Virus record (IMG/VR): IMGVR_UViG_3300005882_000010
DNA length: 34,315 nt
Origin: a virus
Strand: one strand, 5' to 3'
Each line of letters begins with the position of its first letter. The stretch's first letter is position 1. Made by a program: the position numbers and the translations under genes. The notes under the pieces are model-generated. The model saw only the letters and a list, made by a program, of their open reading frames with translations, had not been told where the DNA came from and ran no database searches. Of the stretch, positions 1-34,315 are shown one piece after another.

Positions 1-99
1 ACCCAAAAAGCCAGAACCTAAGCCAAAGAAAAAGCGCAAATGATAGAGATTGTATCGCCATACATAGACACGGTTGCCGTTTTTATTGCAATGGCGATG
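1..99. repeat. Terminal direct repeat, copy 1 (identical to 34217..34315). Assembly overlap of a circular or circularly permuted genome.
   Basis: Bases 1-99 (acccaaaaagccagaacc...attgcaatggcgatg) recur exactly at 34217-34315. The NinG-like ORF end and the start of the next ORF lie inside the repeat. Confidence 0.95.
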
Positions 100-2711: not shown

Positions 2712-3032
2712 ATGTCACAACCAAAAACCATTAAAATTGATAACATTGAGTATGTTCGTTCAGACTCAGTATCTGTAGCGCCAACGAAAAAACAAATCGT
2801 TGTATTGCAGCGCGGCTGGGTAGTTGTTGGAGATGTTGAGAAAACGCCGGAAGAAGTAAAGATCTCAAATTGCTCAGTAATTAGAATTTGGGGTACGTCG
2901 AATGGCTTAGGCGAGATTGCTGAAAGCGGGCCAACTTCAAAAACCAAGCTCGATAAATGTCCGGATGTTATTGTGCATCCCCTTTCTGTAGTCTTATACA
3001 TGAACGTAAACGAGGAAAAATGGAATGGTTGA
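2712..3032 (+). CDS. Hypothetical protein, first gene of a two-gene accessory cassette
   Basis: 106-aa ORF with the purine-rich stretch agaggg upstream. Its stop (3030-3032) overlaps the start of the repeat-protein gene (ATG 3025). Confidence 0.75.
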   Translation: MSQPKTIKIDNIEYVRSDSVSVAPTKKQIVVLQRGWVVVGDVEKTPEEVKISNCSVIRIWGTSNGLGEIAESGPTSKTKLDKCPDVIVHPLSVVLYMNVNEEKWNG

Positions 3033-3336
3033 TATAGAGGGATTTGCGGTTAAAATAAACGGCGACGCCGACGGCTACGGCGACGGATACGGCTACGGCG
3101 ACGGCTCAGGCGGCGGATACGGCTCAGGCTACGGCGACGCCGACGGCTACGGCTACGGCGGCGGCTACGGCGACGGATACGGCTACGGCGACGGCTCAGG
3201 CGGCGGATACGGCTCAGGCTACGGCGACGCCGACGGCTACGGCTACGGCGACGGCTCAGGCTACGGCTCAGGCTACGGCTACGCCGACGACGGCTGGCAA
3301 CTGGTCGGATTTCTTAAACCTCAAAAATCATTATAA
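3025..3336 (+). CDS. Gly/Tyr/Asp low-complexity tandem-repeat protein
   Basis: 103-aa ORF. About 75 residues are G-Y-G / G-D-G / G-S-G repeats with 17 Tyr. Short non-repetitive ends: MVDIEGFAVKING... and ...DDGWQLVGFLKPQKSL. Translationally overlapped with the upstream gene. Confidence 0.7.
   Translation: MVDIEGFAVKINGDADGYGDGYGYGDGSGGGYGSGYGDADGYGYGGGYGDGYGYGDGSGGGYGSGYGDADGYGYGDGSGYGSGYGYADDGWQLVGFLKPQKSL
3061..3290 (+). repeat. GC-rich in-frame tandem repeat. A perfect 89-nt duplication (3072-3160 = 3162-3250, period 90 nt) lies on a short-period ggctac/ggcgac background.
   Basis: Direct comparison of the sequence lines. The two copies are separated by a single base, g3161. Codon choice is almost only GGC/TAC/GAC/TCA/GCC. 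GC content is far above the flanks. Confidence 0.9.
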
Positions 3337-3372: not shown

Positions 3373-3666
3373 ATGGCTAAATGTAAAACTGTATGGTCTG
3401 GCTCAGATAGCTACGGTCGTAGCGTAGAAGTTGCGGAATCTGTAAATGGTAGTTTTTTCTTTAGAGTTTCCGAACGTACCCGCTATGGCTTGCAGTGGTC
3501 TAAGTGGCAGTCACACGAGCCAACTTTTGAAACTCACGGTGTTAATCAAAGCGACAACTGTCCGGAGCATGAGCGCGTTTTCGAGTACAGCGAACCCCAA
3601 ATGTTTTGTGGCTTCAATAAGATGGAAAAGCACGACAAAGCGCCTAACTACAGACTGCCCTATTAA
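3373..3666 (+). CDS. Hypothetical protein
   Basis: 97-aa ORF, the only long frame here. Preceded by gggtaacgaacaATG. No recognisable family. Confidence 0.65.
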   Translation: MAKCKTVWSGSDSYGRSVEVAESVNGSFFFRVSERTRYGLQWSKWQSHEPTFETHGVNQSDNCPEHERVFEYSEPQMFCGFNKMEKHDKAPNYRLPY

Positions 3667-3673
3667 AGGTTTA

Positions 3674-3822
3674 CCGCCCCAGCCTAACCAAGATTGTGTG
3701 AACATCGCTAGTGCATGCTGTGGAAGGTGGTCAAAGGCGATGCGGCTGGGGTGGTGATTAAGCTAGTTAGTCACCAATTTCGTGTCATGCCAGTCTACCC
3801 CTACTGGTGGTGCAAAAAGGGG
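3674..3822 (+). ncRNA. Candidate structured RNA segment: nested long-range helices, a 9-bp hairpin and a possible H-type pseudoknot
   Basis: An 11-bp helix 3674-3684/3744-3754 (one G-U) encloses a 6-bp helix 3703-3708/3737-3742. Hairpin GGTGATTAA-gctag-TTAGTCACC at 3753-3775. CCAGT/ACTGG (3790-3794/3803-3807), whose loop CCCCT (3798-3802) can pair with AGGGG (3818-3822). No credible ORF. Pairings found by eye only. Confidence 0.35.
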
Positions 3823-3892
3823 CACTTAATTTAAGCTCATCTGACACGTTTAGAGTGAGTTTCGGAATCGTTAAACGGTTCCAGTGGTTTAT

Positions 3893-4004
3893 GCGAGAGA
3901 GTTAGTCAAATCTGAGGTATTGATTTACCAATGGCTAATGGGTGAAAGGTGGAGTCTACCATGCCTGACCATCTTTGCAGGTTCGATTCCTGCCTCTCGC
4001 TCCA
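3893..4004 (+). ncRNA. tRNA-like element: perfect 7-bp acceptor stem, canonical T-arm, discriminator T and encoded CCA, around a non-canonical 77-nt core
   Basis: GCGAGAG (3893-3899) pairs perfectly with CTCTCGC (3994-4000). T-arm is GCAGG-TTCGATT-CCTGC (3977-3993), then T-CCA (4001-4004). The total of 112 nt is too long for a tRNA. I found no 5-bp stem with a 7-nt loop that could be an anticodon arm. Confidence 0.5.
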
Positions 4005-4195
4005 AATATAGGCAATATACCATGAATAGAGATGAGAACCATCGTCGAGCCAGAAGAATAGTAAGTAGCTGGCCCAAATGGAAAAGGGAGGTTTCTTTAA
4101 CCAAACACTCTCTACGTTTAAATTGTGCAGCGAAAACTGGAGATAAAGCATTAACATGATGCGAGTCTGCGAAGGCGAGTAGCTGCATTACCTTT

Positions 4196-4224
4196 TTTTC
4201 ATCTTATAGCCTTTCTGGTATAAT
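4196..4224 (+). promoter_or_regulatory. Sigma70-type promoter candidate with extended -10 (TTTTCA - 17 nt - TGgTATAAT)
   Basis: TGGTATAAT at 4216-4224 matches TGnTATAAT. The -35-like TTTTCA is at 4196-4201. It precedes ATG 4248, which has the SD-like sequence gagagg. Confidence 0.5.
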
Positions 4225-4247
4225 ATCCTCACTATTCAGAGAGGTTT

Positions 4248-4433
4248 ATGTTCATGAGTAAGTCACTATATAAGCATATCAGCAAAGAAGATAAAAAGCG
4301 CCATTTCTCAAACGAGCTATGGGGCGGCAAGGGCGATTGCAGATTTAGAGGCAGACGCTCAAACGATGAAGTATCCGAAGAGCTGGATAACTACCGCAAG
4401 AACTACGATTTAATTGATTGGTCTAAAAAGTAA
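4248..4433 (+). CDS. Hypothetical small basic protein
   Basis: 61-aa ORF, SD-like gagagg 5 nt upstream, downstream of the extended -10 promoter candidate. Confidence 0.6.
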   Translation: MFMSKSLYKHISKEDKKRHFSNELWGGKGDCRFRGRRSNDEVSEELDNYRKNYDLIDWSKK

Positions 4434-33611: not shown

Positions 33612-34259
33612 ATGCCGCACAAGAAAAGAAAATGCGTAAACTGCAAAGAATTTAAGCCAGTTGAAGAGGGCAATATAACCCCGTCTGGCTTTATCTGCTC
33701 TGGTGAATGTGCGATTGAATACTCAAGAAAGCAGTTTATCAGAAGAAACTACCTGGGAAACAAGGGCAAGCGCAAAACAAACAATAATCAGGCCGCTAGT
33801 GATTTAAGGGTAAGTAAAAGGGCGGCTATTGCAGCTTGCCATAAATATATTAGAGAGCGCGATAGAGGTGGGCTTTGTATATGCTGCGGAGAGCCATTGA
33901 AAGAAGAGTTTCATGCTGGCCATTTTTGGAACTCAGGAAACTATCCTTACATTAGATTTGATGAAGATAATATTCATGGGCAAAATATTCAGTGTAATTA
34001 TTTTAAAGGCGGCGACTCAGGTTATTATCGTGAAAGGTTGATTGAAAAAATAGGGCTTGAGCGAGTTAAAAGGCTTGATGACAATAGAAGCAAGTCAATA
34101 AAGCGCACATTTGAAGATTATCGAGAGATAGAGCGATACTATAAACAAAAGCTCAAAGATTTGATACAATCAAGGAAGGAAACTAACCGGGGATTTGAAA
34201 TGTCAGGCTCAACCAAACCCAAAAAGCCAGAACCTAAGCCAAAGAAAAAGCGCAAATGA
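33612..34259 (+). CDS. ninG: NinG/Rap-like recombination endonuclease
   Basis: CHKYIRERDRGGLCICCGEPL...HAGHF...IRFDEDNIHGQNIQCNYFKGG...YRERLIEKIGLERV...YYKQKLKDL parallels lambda NinG FIRERDRDLPCISCG...DAGHY...LRFNERNIHKQCVVCN...YRVELISRIG...EYQQKLKDL (from memory). Confidence 0.85.
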   Translation: MPHKKRKCVNCKEFKPVEEGNITPSGFICSGECAIEYSRKQFIRRNYLGNKGKRKTNNNQAASDLRVSKRAAIAACHKYIRERDRGGLCICCGEPLKEEFHAGHFWNSGNYPYIRFDEDNIHGQNIQCNYFKGGDSGYYRERLIEKIGLERVKRLDDNRSKSIKRTFEDYREIERYYKQKLKDLIQSRKETNRGFEMSGSTKPKKPEPKPKKKRK

Positions 34260-34315
34260 TAGAGATTGTATCGCCATACATAGACACGGTTGCCGTTTTT
34301 ATTGCAATGGCGATG
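34217..34315. repeat. Terminal direct repeat, copy 2 (identical to 1..99)
   Basis: Exact 99-nt identity with the window start. Confidence 0.95.

What the first reader, a model, noticed from the sequence alone, without database searches (positions are those of the whole stretch)
3893..4004. tRNA-like element with perfect acceptor stem, canonical T-arm and encoded CCA but no anticodon arm
GCGAGAG (3893-3899) pairs perfectly with CTCTCGC (3994-4000). GCAGG-TTCGATT-CCTGC (3977-3993) is a textbook T-arm, followed by discriminator T and CCA.

The two acceptor strands are separated by 77 nt where a tRNA would have about 41 nt. I scanned every position by hand and found no 5-bp stem closing a 7-nt loop, and no GG-containing D-loop. 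The element is therefore neither a standard class I nor a class II tRNA.

Possibilities:
- An acceptor/T-arm minihelix used as an RNase P/Z processing signal, releasing RNAs from the 3' UTR of 3373..3666.
- A tRNA mimic with an inserted domain.
- A degenerate or interrupted tRNA.
- A remnant att-type tRNA 3' segment, although no integrase is present.
Basis: partly seen in the sequence, partly recalled or inferred. Interest (0 to 1): 0.75.

Follow-up and report, generated by a model that had tools for sequence, protein, structure and literature searches.

The report
Anticodon-less tRNA-like element in a phage
A marine-type phage carries a 112-base piece of RNA-coding DNA that keeps only the "top half" of a glycine tRNA (acceptor stem, T-arm, CCA) and cannot decode, most likely serving as a cutting signal for the host's tRNA-processing enzymes just upstream of a small candidate anti-defence gene.

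Summary
GCGAGAG (3893-3899) pairs perfectly with CTCTCGC (3994-4000). GCAGG-TTCGATT-CCTGC (3977-3993) is a canonical T-arm, followed by T and CCA. None of 300 shuffles reproduces this.

It is not a tRNA, tmRNA or any Rfam family. No single deletion restores a cloverleaf. The 77-nt interior folds no better than random.

The acceptor stem, U73 and CCA are identical to those of real tRNA-Gly genes.

The genome is a complete circle with no integrase. No bacterial genome carries this T-arm and acceptor 3' strand, so an att remnant is unlikely.

Eighty-three related contigs lack the element. One related phage contig (L212, TerL 79% identical) has the T-arm, acceptor 3' strand and CCA (27 of 29 bases) at the same genomic place. 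A provirus (L087) has a similar anticodon-less element with a compensatory T-stem change.

The element lies 17 nt upstream of a real 45-aa gene. Bacterial homologues of that gene sit directly behind anti-phage dCTP deaminases.

Best reading, which is inferred: a tRNA-derived top-half element cut by RNase P and trimmed to its CCA, punctuating the transcript as plant mitochondrial t-elements do. The main rival is a rearranged tRNA relic.

The parts
3893..3899 (+). 5' strand of the acceptor stem (GCGAGAG). The predicted RNase P cut is between U3892 and G3893.
   Evidence: Sequence. It forms seven Watson-Crick pairs with 3994-4000. The same 7-mer is the acceptor of real tRNA-Gly(GCC) genes in metagenomes.
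3900..3976 (+). 77-nt interior that replaces the D-arm, anticodon arm and variable loop. It has no tRNA-like architecture.
   Evidence: No 5-bp stem closing a 7-nt loop. Folding energy equals that of shuffles, z = -0.03. No single deletion of 4-60 nt gives a consistent cloverleaf. Alignments to tRNA-Gly interiors are not significant, p about 0.2.
3942..3948 (+). Alternative, imperfect 5' acceptor strand (GUGAAAG, 6 of 7 pairs) chosen by the tRNA-Gly covariance model.
   Evidence: hit at 3942-4004, 30.8 bits. Probably a by-product of the model's length penalty.
3977..3993 (+). T-arm: GCAGG / TTCGATT / CCTGC. It contains the GGTTCRANYCC motif.
   Evidence: Sequence. The T-arm is conserved apart from one T-loop base in L212, within a 29-nt block that matches 27 of 29. 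L087 has a compensatory C-G to U-A pair.
3994..4000 (+). 3' strand of the acceptor stem (CTCTCGC).
   Evidence: Sequence. Identical in L212 and L087.
4001..4004 (+). Discriminator U73 and encoded CCA.
   Evidence: Sequence. U73 with G1-C72, C2-G71 and G3-C70 is the bacterial glycine acceptor identity set (PMC9976931). The discriminator is G in L212 and L087.
3667..3892 (+). Structured non-coding leader between the stop of ORF 3373-3666 and the element. It holds a long G+C-rich hairpin at 3671-3757 and an 8-bp hairpin at 3864-3882 that ends 10 nt before the predicted cut.
   Evidence: A weak second tRNA-like fold at 3801-3888 appears only at ARAGORN's 70% threshold.
4022..4159 (+). Real 45-aa gene with the motif NHxRAxxxVxSWPxWKREVSLTKHS. 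It is an orphan homologue of the small ORF that follows anti-phage dCTP deaminases.
4157..4199 (+). Possible intrinsic terminator: hairpin at 4157-4190, then a run of seven U at 4193-4199.
   Evidence: Fold (-11.4 kcal/mol, not exceptional) and the sequence. Not called by the simple scanner.
4196..4224 (+). Sigma-70-type promoter-like site (TTTTCA, 17 nt, TG-n-TATAAT) in front of the packaging/structural operon.
   Evidence: The extended -10 aligns with TGATATAAT in L212.

Best explanation
**What it is.** This is a tRNA-derived 'top-half' element. It keeps the coaxial acceptor-stem/T-arm helix, the discriminator and an encoded CCA. The acceptor branch is identical to that of genuine tRNA-Gly genes. 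The D-arm, anticodon arm and variable loop are replaced by 77 nt with no tRNA architecture and no special stability, so the element cannot decode.

**Where it sits.** It lies on the coding strand at the end of the lysis/accessory gene block of a complete, lambdoid-style podovirus genome. Upstream are 226 nt of hairpins that follow ORF 3373-3666. A real 45-aa gene starts 17 nt downstream. A U-run and promoter-like pair that opens the packaging/structural operon lies about 190 nt downstream.

**Most likely mechanism (inferred, not shown).**
1. The element folds within the polycistronic RNA.
2. Host RNase P cuts between U3892 and G3893.
3. The host 3' tRNA-trimming pathway (endonucleolytic cut in the A/U-rich trailer, then exonucleases) stops at the encoded CCA at 4004.

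This punctuates the transcript. The upstream mRNA ends in protective hairpins. The small downstream gene gets its own short-leader RNA. A stable RNA of about 112 nt is released.

**Shown:** the anatomy, the failure of every tRNA, tmRNA and Rfam test, the context, and limited conservation.

**Inferred:** transcription, cleavage, and any benefit to the phage.
For: **Anatomy matches the minimal RNase P substrate.** It has a 7-bp plus 5-bp coaxial helix, a canonical T-loop, U at -1, G at +1 and 3' NCCA. That an acceptor/T-arm minihelix is enough for RNase P is established knowledge recalled from memory (McClain, Guerrier-Takada and Altman 1987), not tested here.

**Not chance.** 0 of 300 shuffles reproduce it. 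The tRNA-Gly model scores 30.8 bits, E = 7e-7.

**Not a decoding tRNA**.

**Conservation.**
- A related phage contig, L212 (TerL 79% aa), carries the T-arm, 3' acceptor strand and CCA with 27 of 29 identical bases.
- It sits at the same place, upstream of the homologue of gene 4248-4433, the conserved -10 and TerS.
- The sequence after CCA is unalignable, and TerS DNA is only 74.6% identical. My binomial estimate for 27 or more of 29 at that identity is about 0.013.
- Provirus L087 has a complete anticodon-less element with the same acceptor, the same 'AG' after it, CCA, an A/T-rich trailer and a compensatory T-stem pair.

**Neutral decay is hard to reconcile.** All 35 top-half positions are intact, while the interior is unrecognisable and needs more than one rearrangement.

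**Position.** The element is on the same strand as its neighbours, with no promoter-like site between 3056 and 4196.

**Analogy.** Plant mitochondrial t-elements are non-canonical tRNA-like folds with a conserved GGTTCRANYCC arm that direct RNase P and RNase Z cuts at mRNA ends (PMC1920247).
Against: - There are no expression or cleavage data.
- The family has only two complete members and one truncated member. L087 was found with a pattern that fixed the acceptor and T-loop, so only its T-stem change, flanks and lack of a tRNA body are independent evidence.
- The L212 contig ends 6 nt before the T-stem. Its copy could be an ordinary tRNA, which would make the window's copy a degraded derivative.
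- Eighty TerL relatives from IMG/VR and three further TerS relatives (L209 to L211, whose TerS is 81-95% identical) have packed ORFs and no such element, so it is dispensable.
- The interior is not structured.
- The window and L087 interiors do not align significantly.
- The terminator and promoter are only consensus-like.
Confidence: 0.45

Rival explanations
1. Non-functional relic. A phage tRNA gene of the glycine type, once at the end of the lysis/accessory block, had its D and anticodon regions destroyed by insertions, deletions or recombination. The intact top half simply reflects how recent the damage is.
For: - The interior is no more stable than random.
- Faint collinear traces of a tRNA body remain. 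GGTGGAG-TCTACCATGCC resembles the tRNA-Gly D-loop, anticodon 5' strand and U-GCC (15 of 19, p about 0.2). GCTAATGGGTGAAAGGTGG resembles a class II D-arm (p = 0.04).
- Most relatives lack the element.
- The L212 copy might be an intact tRNA.
- A 42%-glycine ORF rich in GGC codons lies 560 nt upstream, so a former tRNA-Gly(GCC) would have made sense there.
Against: - No single deletion restores a cloverleaf, so several events are needed, yet none of the 35 top-half positions is damaged.
- L087 shows the same anticodon-less design independently, with a compensatory T-stem change.
- The T-arm and acceptor block is more conserved between the window and L212 than the coding DNA beside it.
Confidence: 0.3
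2. Trans-acting tRNA acceptor-end mimic. The released CCA-ended minihelix would act as a decoy or substrate for enzymes that read only the acceptor branch. Candidates are GlyRS, toxins that acetylate Gly-tRNA (TacT type), and defence enzymes that modify tRNA 3' ends.
For: - The element carries the complete bacterial glycine acceptor set: U73, G1-C72, C2-G71 and G3-C70.
- The U73 plus G71 combination is reported to occur only in tRNA-Gly and to specify TacT action (PMC9976931).
- The acceptor stem, U73 and CCA are identical to real tRNA-Gly genes.
- The neighbouring gene looks like an anti-defence gene.
Against: - The discriminator is G, not U, in L212 and L087, so glycine identity is not conserved in the family.
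- The C35 and C36 identity elements have no anticodon loop to sit in.
- A stoichiometric decoy would have to compete with abundant host tRNA.
- No such toxin is known for the unknown host.
Confidence: 0.1
3. A functional decoding tRNA with an intron or an aberrant body that standard detectors miss.
For: - ARAGORN at a 70% threshold with introns allowed proposes tRNA-Pyl(CUA) with a 33-nt intron.
- Long phage and metagenomic tRNAs with inserted segments do exist: L090 7014-7125, L092 and L163.
Against: - The proposed models are mutually inconsistent (Gly-ACC, Ser-GGA, Pyl, Val, Ile, Trp) and have mismatched anticodon stems.
- The intron position is non-canonical.
- The Rfam tRNA model gives no hit even at E = 10, although it does score the other long tRNAs at 38-42 bits.
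- The host is bacterial, and no splicing machinery is evident.
Confidence: 0.05
4. Recombination scar or attP core: the 3' end of a host tRNA gene retained for site-specific integration.
For: - The recognisable tRNA sequence starts at the T-stem and runs to CCA, as attP cores often do.
- L212 shares just that block.
Against: - The genome is a closed circle (99-nt terminal overlap) with no integrase among its ORFs.
- The location is between lysis and packaging genes.
- A perfect 7-nt 5' acceptor strand is present, with chance about 0.6% by my estimate.
- The 24-mer occurs in no bacterial genome among one genome for each of 185,579 species.
Confidence: 0.04

Closest known systems
Plant mitochondrial t-elements (tRNA-like processing signals)
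   Same: Both are non-canonical tRNA-like folds that keep a perfect GGTTCRANYCC T-arm and an acceptor-like stem. Both lie at the boundaries of mRNAs. t-elements are cut by RNase P and RNase Z and can receive or carry C and A residues at the 3' end (PMC1920247). This is the closest functional analogue.
   Different: t-elements are organellar rather than phage-borne and are not homologous to this element. Their ends have been mapped experimentally, whereas nothing has been mapped here. CCA is encoded here, so bacterial exonucleolytic trimming is expected rather than RNase Z.
Canonical bacterial and phage tRNA-Gly genes
   Same: The acceptor stem GCGAGAG/CTCTCGC, U73 and CCA are identical to tRNA-Gly(GCC/UCC) genes from metagenomes such as L096, L106 and L121. 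The T-loop is canonical.
   Different: There is no D-arm in register, no anticodon arm and no anticodon. The element is 112 nt rather than 74-76 nt. It fails ARAGORN and Rfam RF00005.
tRNA-like domain of tmRNA
   Same: The top half of a tRNA (acceptor plus T-arm plus CCA) is retained while the bottom half is replaced by other sequence.
   Different: There is no G3-U70 alanine determinant (G3-C70 here), no tag reading frame and no pseudoknots. The insert is only 77 nt. ARAGORN's tmRNA search and Rfam found nothing.
P1/P7 C4 and P4 CI RNAs (phage regulatory RNAs matured by RNase P)
   Same: These are phage RNAs excised from a longer transcript by RNase P, thanks to a terminal stem and a 3' CCA. 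This rests on my own knowledge of Hartmann et al. 1995 and Forti et al. 1995, which I did not re-read.
   Different: No Rfam family reached even E = 10 here, C4 included if the library holds it. No antisense target stands out in the genome: the best duplex is -43.5 kcal/mol, against shuffled minima of -42.5 to -45.7. C4 and CI have no T-arm.
T4 RNAC and RNAD (small stable RNAs of the T4 tRNA cluster)
   Same: These are phage-encoded, tRNA-associated small RNAs that do not decode and have no known role (PMC3014915).
   Different: They are part of a large tRNA cluster in a T4-type genome. No sequence relation was tested.

Membership tests
tRNA (Rfam RF00005 / ARAGORN) | Detector score above threshold for a full cloverleaf. 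| tested here: not met
   ARAGORN at default settings finds 0 genes. Rfam at gathering score finds 0, and the permissive scan gives only tRNA-Sec at 17.2 bits against a gathering score of 47.
tRNA (Rfam RF00005 / ARAGORN) | Anticodon arm: a 5-bp stem closing a 7-nt loop. | tested here: not met
   Enumeration of 3900-3976 finds none. Variants from the deletion scan have mismatched stems.
tRNA (Rfam RF00005 / ARAGORN) | D-arm two nucleotides after the acceptor stem, with GG in the loop. | tested here: not met
   TTAG-TCAAAT-CTGA is in register but has no GG. The hairpins with GG loops, at 3908-3926 and 3934-3950 (read from the sequence), are out of register.
tRNA (Rfam RF00005 / ARAGORN) | 7-bp acceptor stem, 5-bp T-stem, T-loop TTCRANY and discriminator (plus CCA). 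| tested here: met
Bacterial tRNA-Gly identity set | U73, G1-C72, C2-G71 and G3-C70. | tested here: met
   Sequence compared with Table 1 of PMC9976931.
Bacterial tRNA-Gly identity set | C35 and C36 in an anticodon loop. | tested here: not met
   There is no anticodon loop. A U-GCC-U string at 3962-3966 is paired in the best predicted folds.
tmRNA | G3-U70, a tag reading frame with a resume codon, pseudoknots, and a detector hit. | tested here: not met
   The pair is G3-C70. ARAGORN's tmRNA mode and Rfam are negative.
C4 antisense RNA family (P1/P7/P4 type) | Rfam model match, and loops complementary to targets on the same transcript. | tested here: not met
   There is no Rfam match, and no duplex better than with a shuffled interior.
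t-element-like processing signal | Conserved GGTTCRANYCC arm in a non-canonical tRNA-like fold inside a transcribed region. | tested here: met
   GGTTCGATTCC is at 3980-3990. The element is on the same strand as its neighbours, with no promoter-like site upstream.
t-element-like processing signal | RNA ends coincide with the ends of the element. | not testable with these tools
   No RNA data are available for this uncultured phage.
tRNA-type attP | Adjacent integrase, and identity to a host tRNA 3' end. | tested here: not met
   The complete genome has no integrase. The 24-mer occurs only in a Nanoarchaeota tRNA-Leu among one genome for each of 185,579 species.

The most novel reading that the evidence does not exclude
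The element could be the processing and stabilising module of a phage anti-defence cassette, working as a natural 'tRNA-cargo' array. RNase P and CCA-limited trimming at the tRNA-like top half would release a defined RNA of about 190 nt (4005 to the U-run at 4199). That RNA carries an orphan copy of the small ORF that in bacteria is translationally coupled to AvcD-type anti-phage dCTP deaminases. Its product, either the 45-aa protein or the RNA itself by analogy with the AvcI RNA antitoxin, would neutralise that defence. Anticodon-less top-half tRNAs would then be a small, unrecognised class of phage cis-processing elements.
Probability: 0.15. Interest if true: 0.75.

Novelty: new variant of a known kind. 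Interest (0 to 1): 0.5.

Why it matters
Phage tRNA genes are normally read as decoding aids or as replacements for tRNAs cut by host defences.

An element that keeps only the half of a tRNA seen by RNase P, the CCA pathway and acceptor-reading enzymes would show something different: phages using tRNA shape purely as an RNA-processing or mimicry device. This is known for plant mitochondrial t-elements, mascRNA and engineered tRNA-guide RNA arrays, but it is not an established class in phages.

Such elements are invisible to tRNA and Rfam annotation.

The neighbouring 45-aa gene is a separate lead. It ties a previously unannotated small ORF to anti-phage dCTP deaminases and suggests a phage counter-measure.

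Tried and rejected
- **Canonical tRNA or tmRNA.** ARAGORN at default, with introns, in mitochondrial mode and at lowered thresholds gave only implausible models at 70-80% thresholds.
- **Rfam.** Nothing was found at gathering score or in the permissive scan.
- **Hidden intron or insertion.** All single deletions of 4-60 nt were re-scanned. This gave 61 calls of six different identities, all with poor stems, so the idea was rejected.
- **Internal tandem duplication.** Not significant, p = 0.38-0.79.
- **Antisense regulator of the C4 type.** No target scored better than with a shuffled interior.
- **Structured inserted domain.** The interior has z = -0.03.
- **Host tRNA copy or attP.** The exact 24-mer scans found only a jumbo-phage tRNA-Ile (L081) and a Nanoarchaeota tRNA-Leu (L082).
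- **Homologues by DNA.**
  - There was no blastn or megablast match in 50,697 phage records.
  - Gapped pattern scans of IMG/VR and the metagenome collection returned 12 and 65 hits. These are a mixed bag of real tRNA-Gly genes preceded by a chance GCGAGAG, long intron-like tRNA-Leu genes, and a few unclassifiable elements. None has an interior similar to this one.
  - Interior-anchored patterns found nothing.
  - A Gly-type pattern found ordinary tRNA-Gly genes.
- **Coding ORF 3884-4159 over the element.** Codon statistics were inconclusive. Homologues start at Met47, so the first half is not coding.
- **Remnant of a deaminase gene upstream of the small ORF.** There was no tblastn signal.
- **tRNA-like features near the small ORF or the deaminase in other loci.** None were found.
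- **Fetching the second JGI contig that carries this phage's proteins.** It is not retrievable.

Full report
**1. The observation**

The sequence at 3893-4004 reads GCGAGAG, then 77 nt, then GCAGG-TTCGATT-CCTGC, then CTCTCGC, T and CCA, exactly as reported. All twelve stem pairs are Watson-Crick.

An exhaustive enumeration confirms that no 5-bp stem closes a 7-nt loop in the interior. Two details need correcting:
- The 77 nt separate the 5' acceptor strand from the T-arm, not the two acceptor strands, which are 94 nt apart.
- Hairpins with GG in their loops exist at 3908-3926 and 3934-3950 (read from the sequence), but they are out of tRNA register.

The feature is not chance. I ran 300 dinucleotide-preserving shuffles of the whole window with a relaxed definition. 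A T-arm occurred 0.60 times per genome, a T-arm plus 7-bp acceptor 0.043 times, and the same plus CCA never. A covariance model built from 33 tRNA-Gly genes hits only this site, at 30.8 bits and E = 7e-7.

**2. What it is not**

*Not a recognised RNA family.*
- ARAGORN finds no tRNA or tmRNA in the window.
- Rfam finds nothing at gathering score. The permissive scan of 3600-4250 gives only tRNA-Sec at 17.2 bits, E = 1.4.

*Not a tRNA hidden by an intron or insertion.*
- With thresholds lowered to 70% and introns allowed, ARAGORN proposes implausible models.
- I deleted every interior segment of 4-60 nt and re-scanned. This gave 61 default-threshold calls, but of six different identities (Gly-ACC, Ser-GGA, Pyl, Val, Ile, Trp), all with mismatched anticodon stems. 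A perfect acceptor and T-arm are evidently enough to satisfy the detector, and no hidden intron emerges.

*Not a structured inserted domain.* The interior folds no better than shuffles, z = -0.03. It shows no significant internal duplication. It has no significant similarity to tRNA-Gly interiors. The best local match is GGTGGAG-TCTACCATGCC against GGTAGAGCACGACCTTGCC, 15 of 19, p about 0.2. A class II D-arm-like stretch reaches p = 0.04.

*Not an antisense regulator with a visible target.* No target stands out anywhere in the genome.

**3. Context**

The window is a complete, circularly assembled genome with a 99-nt terminal overlap. It is a podovirus with lambdoid-style modules:

| Module | Coordinates or evidence |
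|---|---|
| Rad52-type recombinase and Gp157 | minus strand |
| HTH/DnaD-like and lambda-P-like replication proteins | Pfam matches |
| SSB and NinG | Pfam matches |
| M15 endolysin | 962-1387 |
| Weak Rz-like spanin match | 1868-2224 |
| Accessory ORFs | between the lysis genes and the gap |
| Non-coding gap | 3667-4247 |
| Small terminase, TerL, portal, capsid, tail | downstream of the gap |

There is no integrase.

The 24-nt T-arm plus 3' acceptor string occurs in one genome out of one per 185,579 species, a Nanoarchaeota tRNA-Leu. It occurs once in IMG/VR, in a jumbo-phage tRNA-Ile. An att remnant is therefore unlikely.

The element is on the same strand as its neighbours. No promoter-like site lies between 3056 and 4196. 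Upstream are several hairpins. Downstream are a hairpin with a run of seven U at 4157-4199, and an extended -10 promoter-like site at 4196-4224.

**4. Acceptor identity**

G1-C72, C2-G71, G3-C70 and U73 are the bacterial glycine acceptor determinants. U73 with G71 is reported to be unique to tRNA-Gly (PMC9976931).

Pattern scans recovered many genuine tRNA-Gly(GCC/UCC) genes whose acceptor stem, discriminator and CCA are letter-for-letter those of this element. The element is therefore most simply derived from a tRNA-Gly-type gene.

**5. The downstream ORF**

The 91-codon ORF 3884-4159 that overlaps the element is coding only in its second half. A full HMMER search of 1.84 billion representatives found 11 small proteins that align from their own first residues to Met47 onward. 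A profile search found 32 clusters sharing the motif NHxRAxxxVxSWPxWK(K/R)EVSLTK(H/Y)S. The differences I read between two homologues (L195 and L197) are mostly synonymous, which points to a protein.

In bacterial contigs this ORF lies immediately 3' of a 460-505-aa protein and often overlaps it. That protein matches PADLOC 'dCTPase' at E = 1e-164 to 1e-173 and is named 'anti-phage dCTP deaminase' by NCBI.

In phage-like contigs (L198-L200) and in this window the ORF stands alone. The window holds no deaminase remnant. The gene at 4022-4159 is therefore a candidate anti-defence gene. For comparison, the known antitoxin of AvcD is an RNA of 152-174 nt encoded 5' of the deaminase (bioRxiv 10.1101/2021.03.31.437871; PMC10511110).

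No other member of this ORF family has a tRNA or tRNA-like element beside it.

**6. Conservation**

*Relatives that lack the element.*
- Eighty TerL relatives from IMG/VR (up to 82% aa identity) have no tRNA, no GGTTCGAWTCC motif, no blastn match to 3660-4250, and no hit with the tRNA-Gly model.
- The closest small-terminase relatives, L209 (95%) and L210/L211 (81%), have packed ORFs upstream.

*One relative that has it.* L212 (small terminase 79-80% aa identical, TerL 79% aa) begins with AATATC-GCAGG-TTCGAGT-CCTGC-CTCTCGC-G-CCA-A.
- This is 27 of 29 identical to window 3977-4005.
- It lies about 250 nt upstream of the homologue of gene 4248-4433 (55% aa identity over the 31 residues that align), with an aligned TGATATAAT, and upstream of the small terminase.
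- Everything between CCA and the promoter is unalignable, and the 45-aa gene is absent.
- The neighbouring coding DNA is 74.6% identical, so the block is better conserved than its surroundings. My binomial estimate is p about 0.013.
- The contig ends 6 nt before the T-stem, so the body of the element is unknown.

*A second complete example.* In IMG/VR the only match to GYAGGTTCGAKTCCTRCCTCTCGCNCCA is L087, a provirus element between a small gene and a primase-polymerase/helicase gene. Its features:
- the same acceptor stem, followed by AG;
- a 71-nt interior without any tRNA call;
- the T-loop and G discriminator of L212;
- CCA and an A/T-rich trailer;
- a T-stem pair changed on both sides, C-G to U-A.

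Its interior does not align significantly with the window's.

These three copies form a small family. Its existence argues against simple decay. The discriminator varies (U, G, G), which argues against a glycine-specific role.

**7. Mechanism**

What remains constant is the part of a tRNA that RNase P, the CCA pathway and 3' trimming recognise. I therefore favour a cis-acting processing signal.
- RNase P cuts at 3892/3893.
- 3' trimming stops at CCA 4004.
- The upstream mRNA is left ending in hairpins.
- The downstream small gene gets a 17-nt leader.
- An RNA of about 112 nt is released.

This works like plant mitochondrial t-elements (PMC1920247). Membership in that group cannot be claimed, because no RNA ends are known here.

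My confidence is 0.45. The rivals are:

| Rival | Confidence |
|---|---|
| Rearranged tRNA relic | 0.30 |
| Acceptor-end mimic or decoy | 0.10 |
| Aberrant decoding tRNA | 0.05 |
| att scar | 0.04 |

**8. Novelty and interest**

This is a new variant of a known kind: tRNA-like processing or mimicry elements, here in a phage and without any anticodon domain. Interest is moderate, at 0.5.
- The anatomy is striking and invisible to annotation.
- There is some independent conservation.
- It adjoins a likely anti-defence gene.
- Against this, the family is tiny, the function is inferred, and a relic cannot be excluded.

Noticed in passing
window 4022-4159; loci L195-L197, L201-L206: A 45-aa gene belongs to an unannotated small-protein family with the motif NHxRAxxxVxSWPxWKREVSLTK(H/Y)S. 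In bacteria the family member lies directly behind anti-phage dCTP deaminases (AvcD type) and often overlaps them. In phage contigs it is an orphan. This makes it a candidate partner or inhibitor of that defence.
   Followed up: partly
window 3025-3336: This ORF encodes a repeat protein of about 42% Gly, 21% Tyr and 17% Asp (GYGDGYGYGDGSGGGYGSGYGDAD...). It has 65% G+C in a genome of about 45% and uses mostly GGC codons. It lies 560 nt upstream of the glycine-type tRNA-like element, and its function is unknown.
   Followed up: partly
L087 545-650: A provirus carries another element with an acceptor stem, T-arm and GCCA but no anticodon arm, just upstream of a primase-polymerase/helicase gene. 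The 16 nt before it (AAAGGAAAGTTTTATG) repeat the ribosome-binding site and ATG of the preceding gene. G1 of the element is the G of that ATG, as it is in the window (TTTATG|CGAGAG).
   Followed up: partly
L084 2310-2426; L085 2351-2444 (same sequence as L108); L089 2370-2474; L157; L154: Further viral and metagenomic elements have the GCGAGAG acceptor and a T-arm but interiors that neither ARAGORN nor Rfam accepts as tRNA. Some have a small D-arm and a long non-anticodon arm. Since a single acceptor sequence was searched, such elements may be common.
   Followed up: no
L090 7014-7125 and 3512-3624; L092 6223-6330; L105; L138; L143; L163; L164 and L180: These are long tRNA genes of 95-120 nt with inserted hairpins in the anticodon region, the D-loop (L163) or the variable arm (L164 and L180, a tRNA-Gly(CCC) with a long variable arm). 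Several are scored as tRNA by Rfam at only 38-42 bits and are missed by ARAGORN.
   Followed up: no
L121, L123, L128, L145, L146, L117, L151 (metagenome loci): Real tRNA-Gly(GCC) genes are preceded, 35-45 nt upstream, by a second copy of their own 5' acceptor strand GCGAGAG. This copy often lies within a GCGAGAG...CTCTCGC-like leader hairpin.
   Followed up: no
window 3801-3888: A weak second tRNA-like fold lies just upstream of the element. It has the acceptor CTACTGG/CCAGTGG, then TG, then a D-arm GTGC-AAAAAGGG-GCAC. It is seen only at ARAGORN's 70% threshold and is not part of the minimum-energy fold.
   Followed up: partly
window 3671-3757: A long hairpin with a G+C-rich closing stem (ACCGCCCCAGCC/GGCTGGGGTGGT plus two more pairs) starts 5 nt after the stop codon of ORF 3373-3666. 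No U-run follows it.
   Followed up: no
window 1-99 and 34217-34315: An exact 99-nt terminal direct overlap shows that the contig is a circularly assembled, complete genome of 34,216 bp.
   Followed up: yes
L195 4106-7161: In one bacterial contig, the island carrying the dCTP deaminase and small ORF lies next to glyQ and glyS, the genes for glycyl-tRNA synthetase. This is probably coincidence.
   Followed up: no
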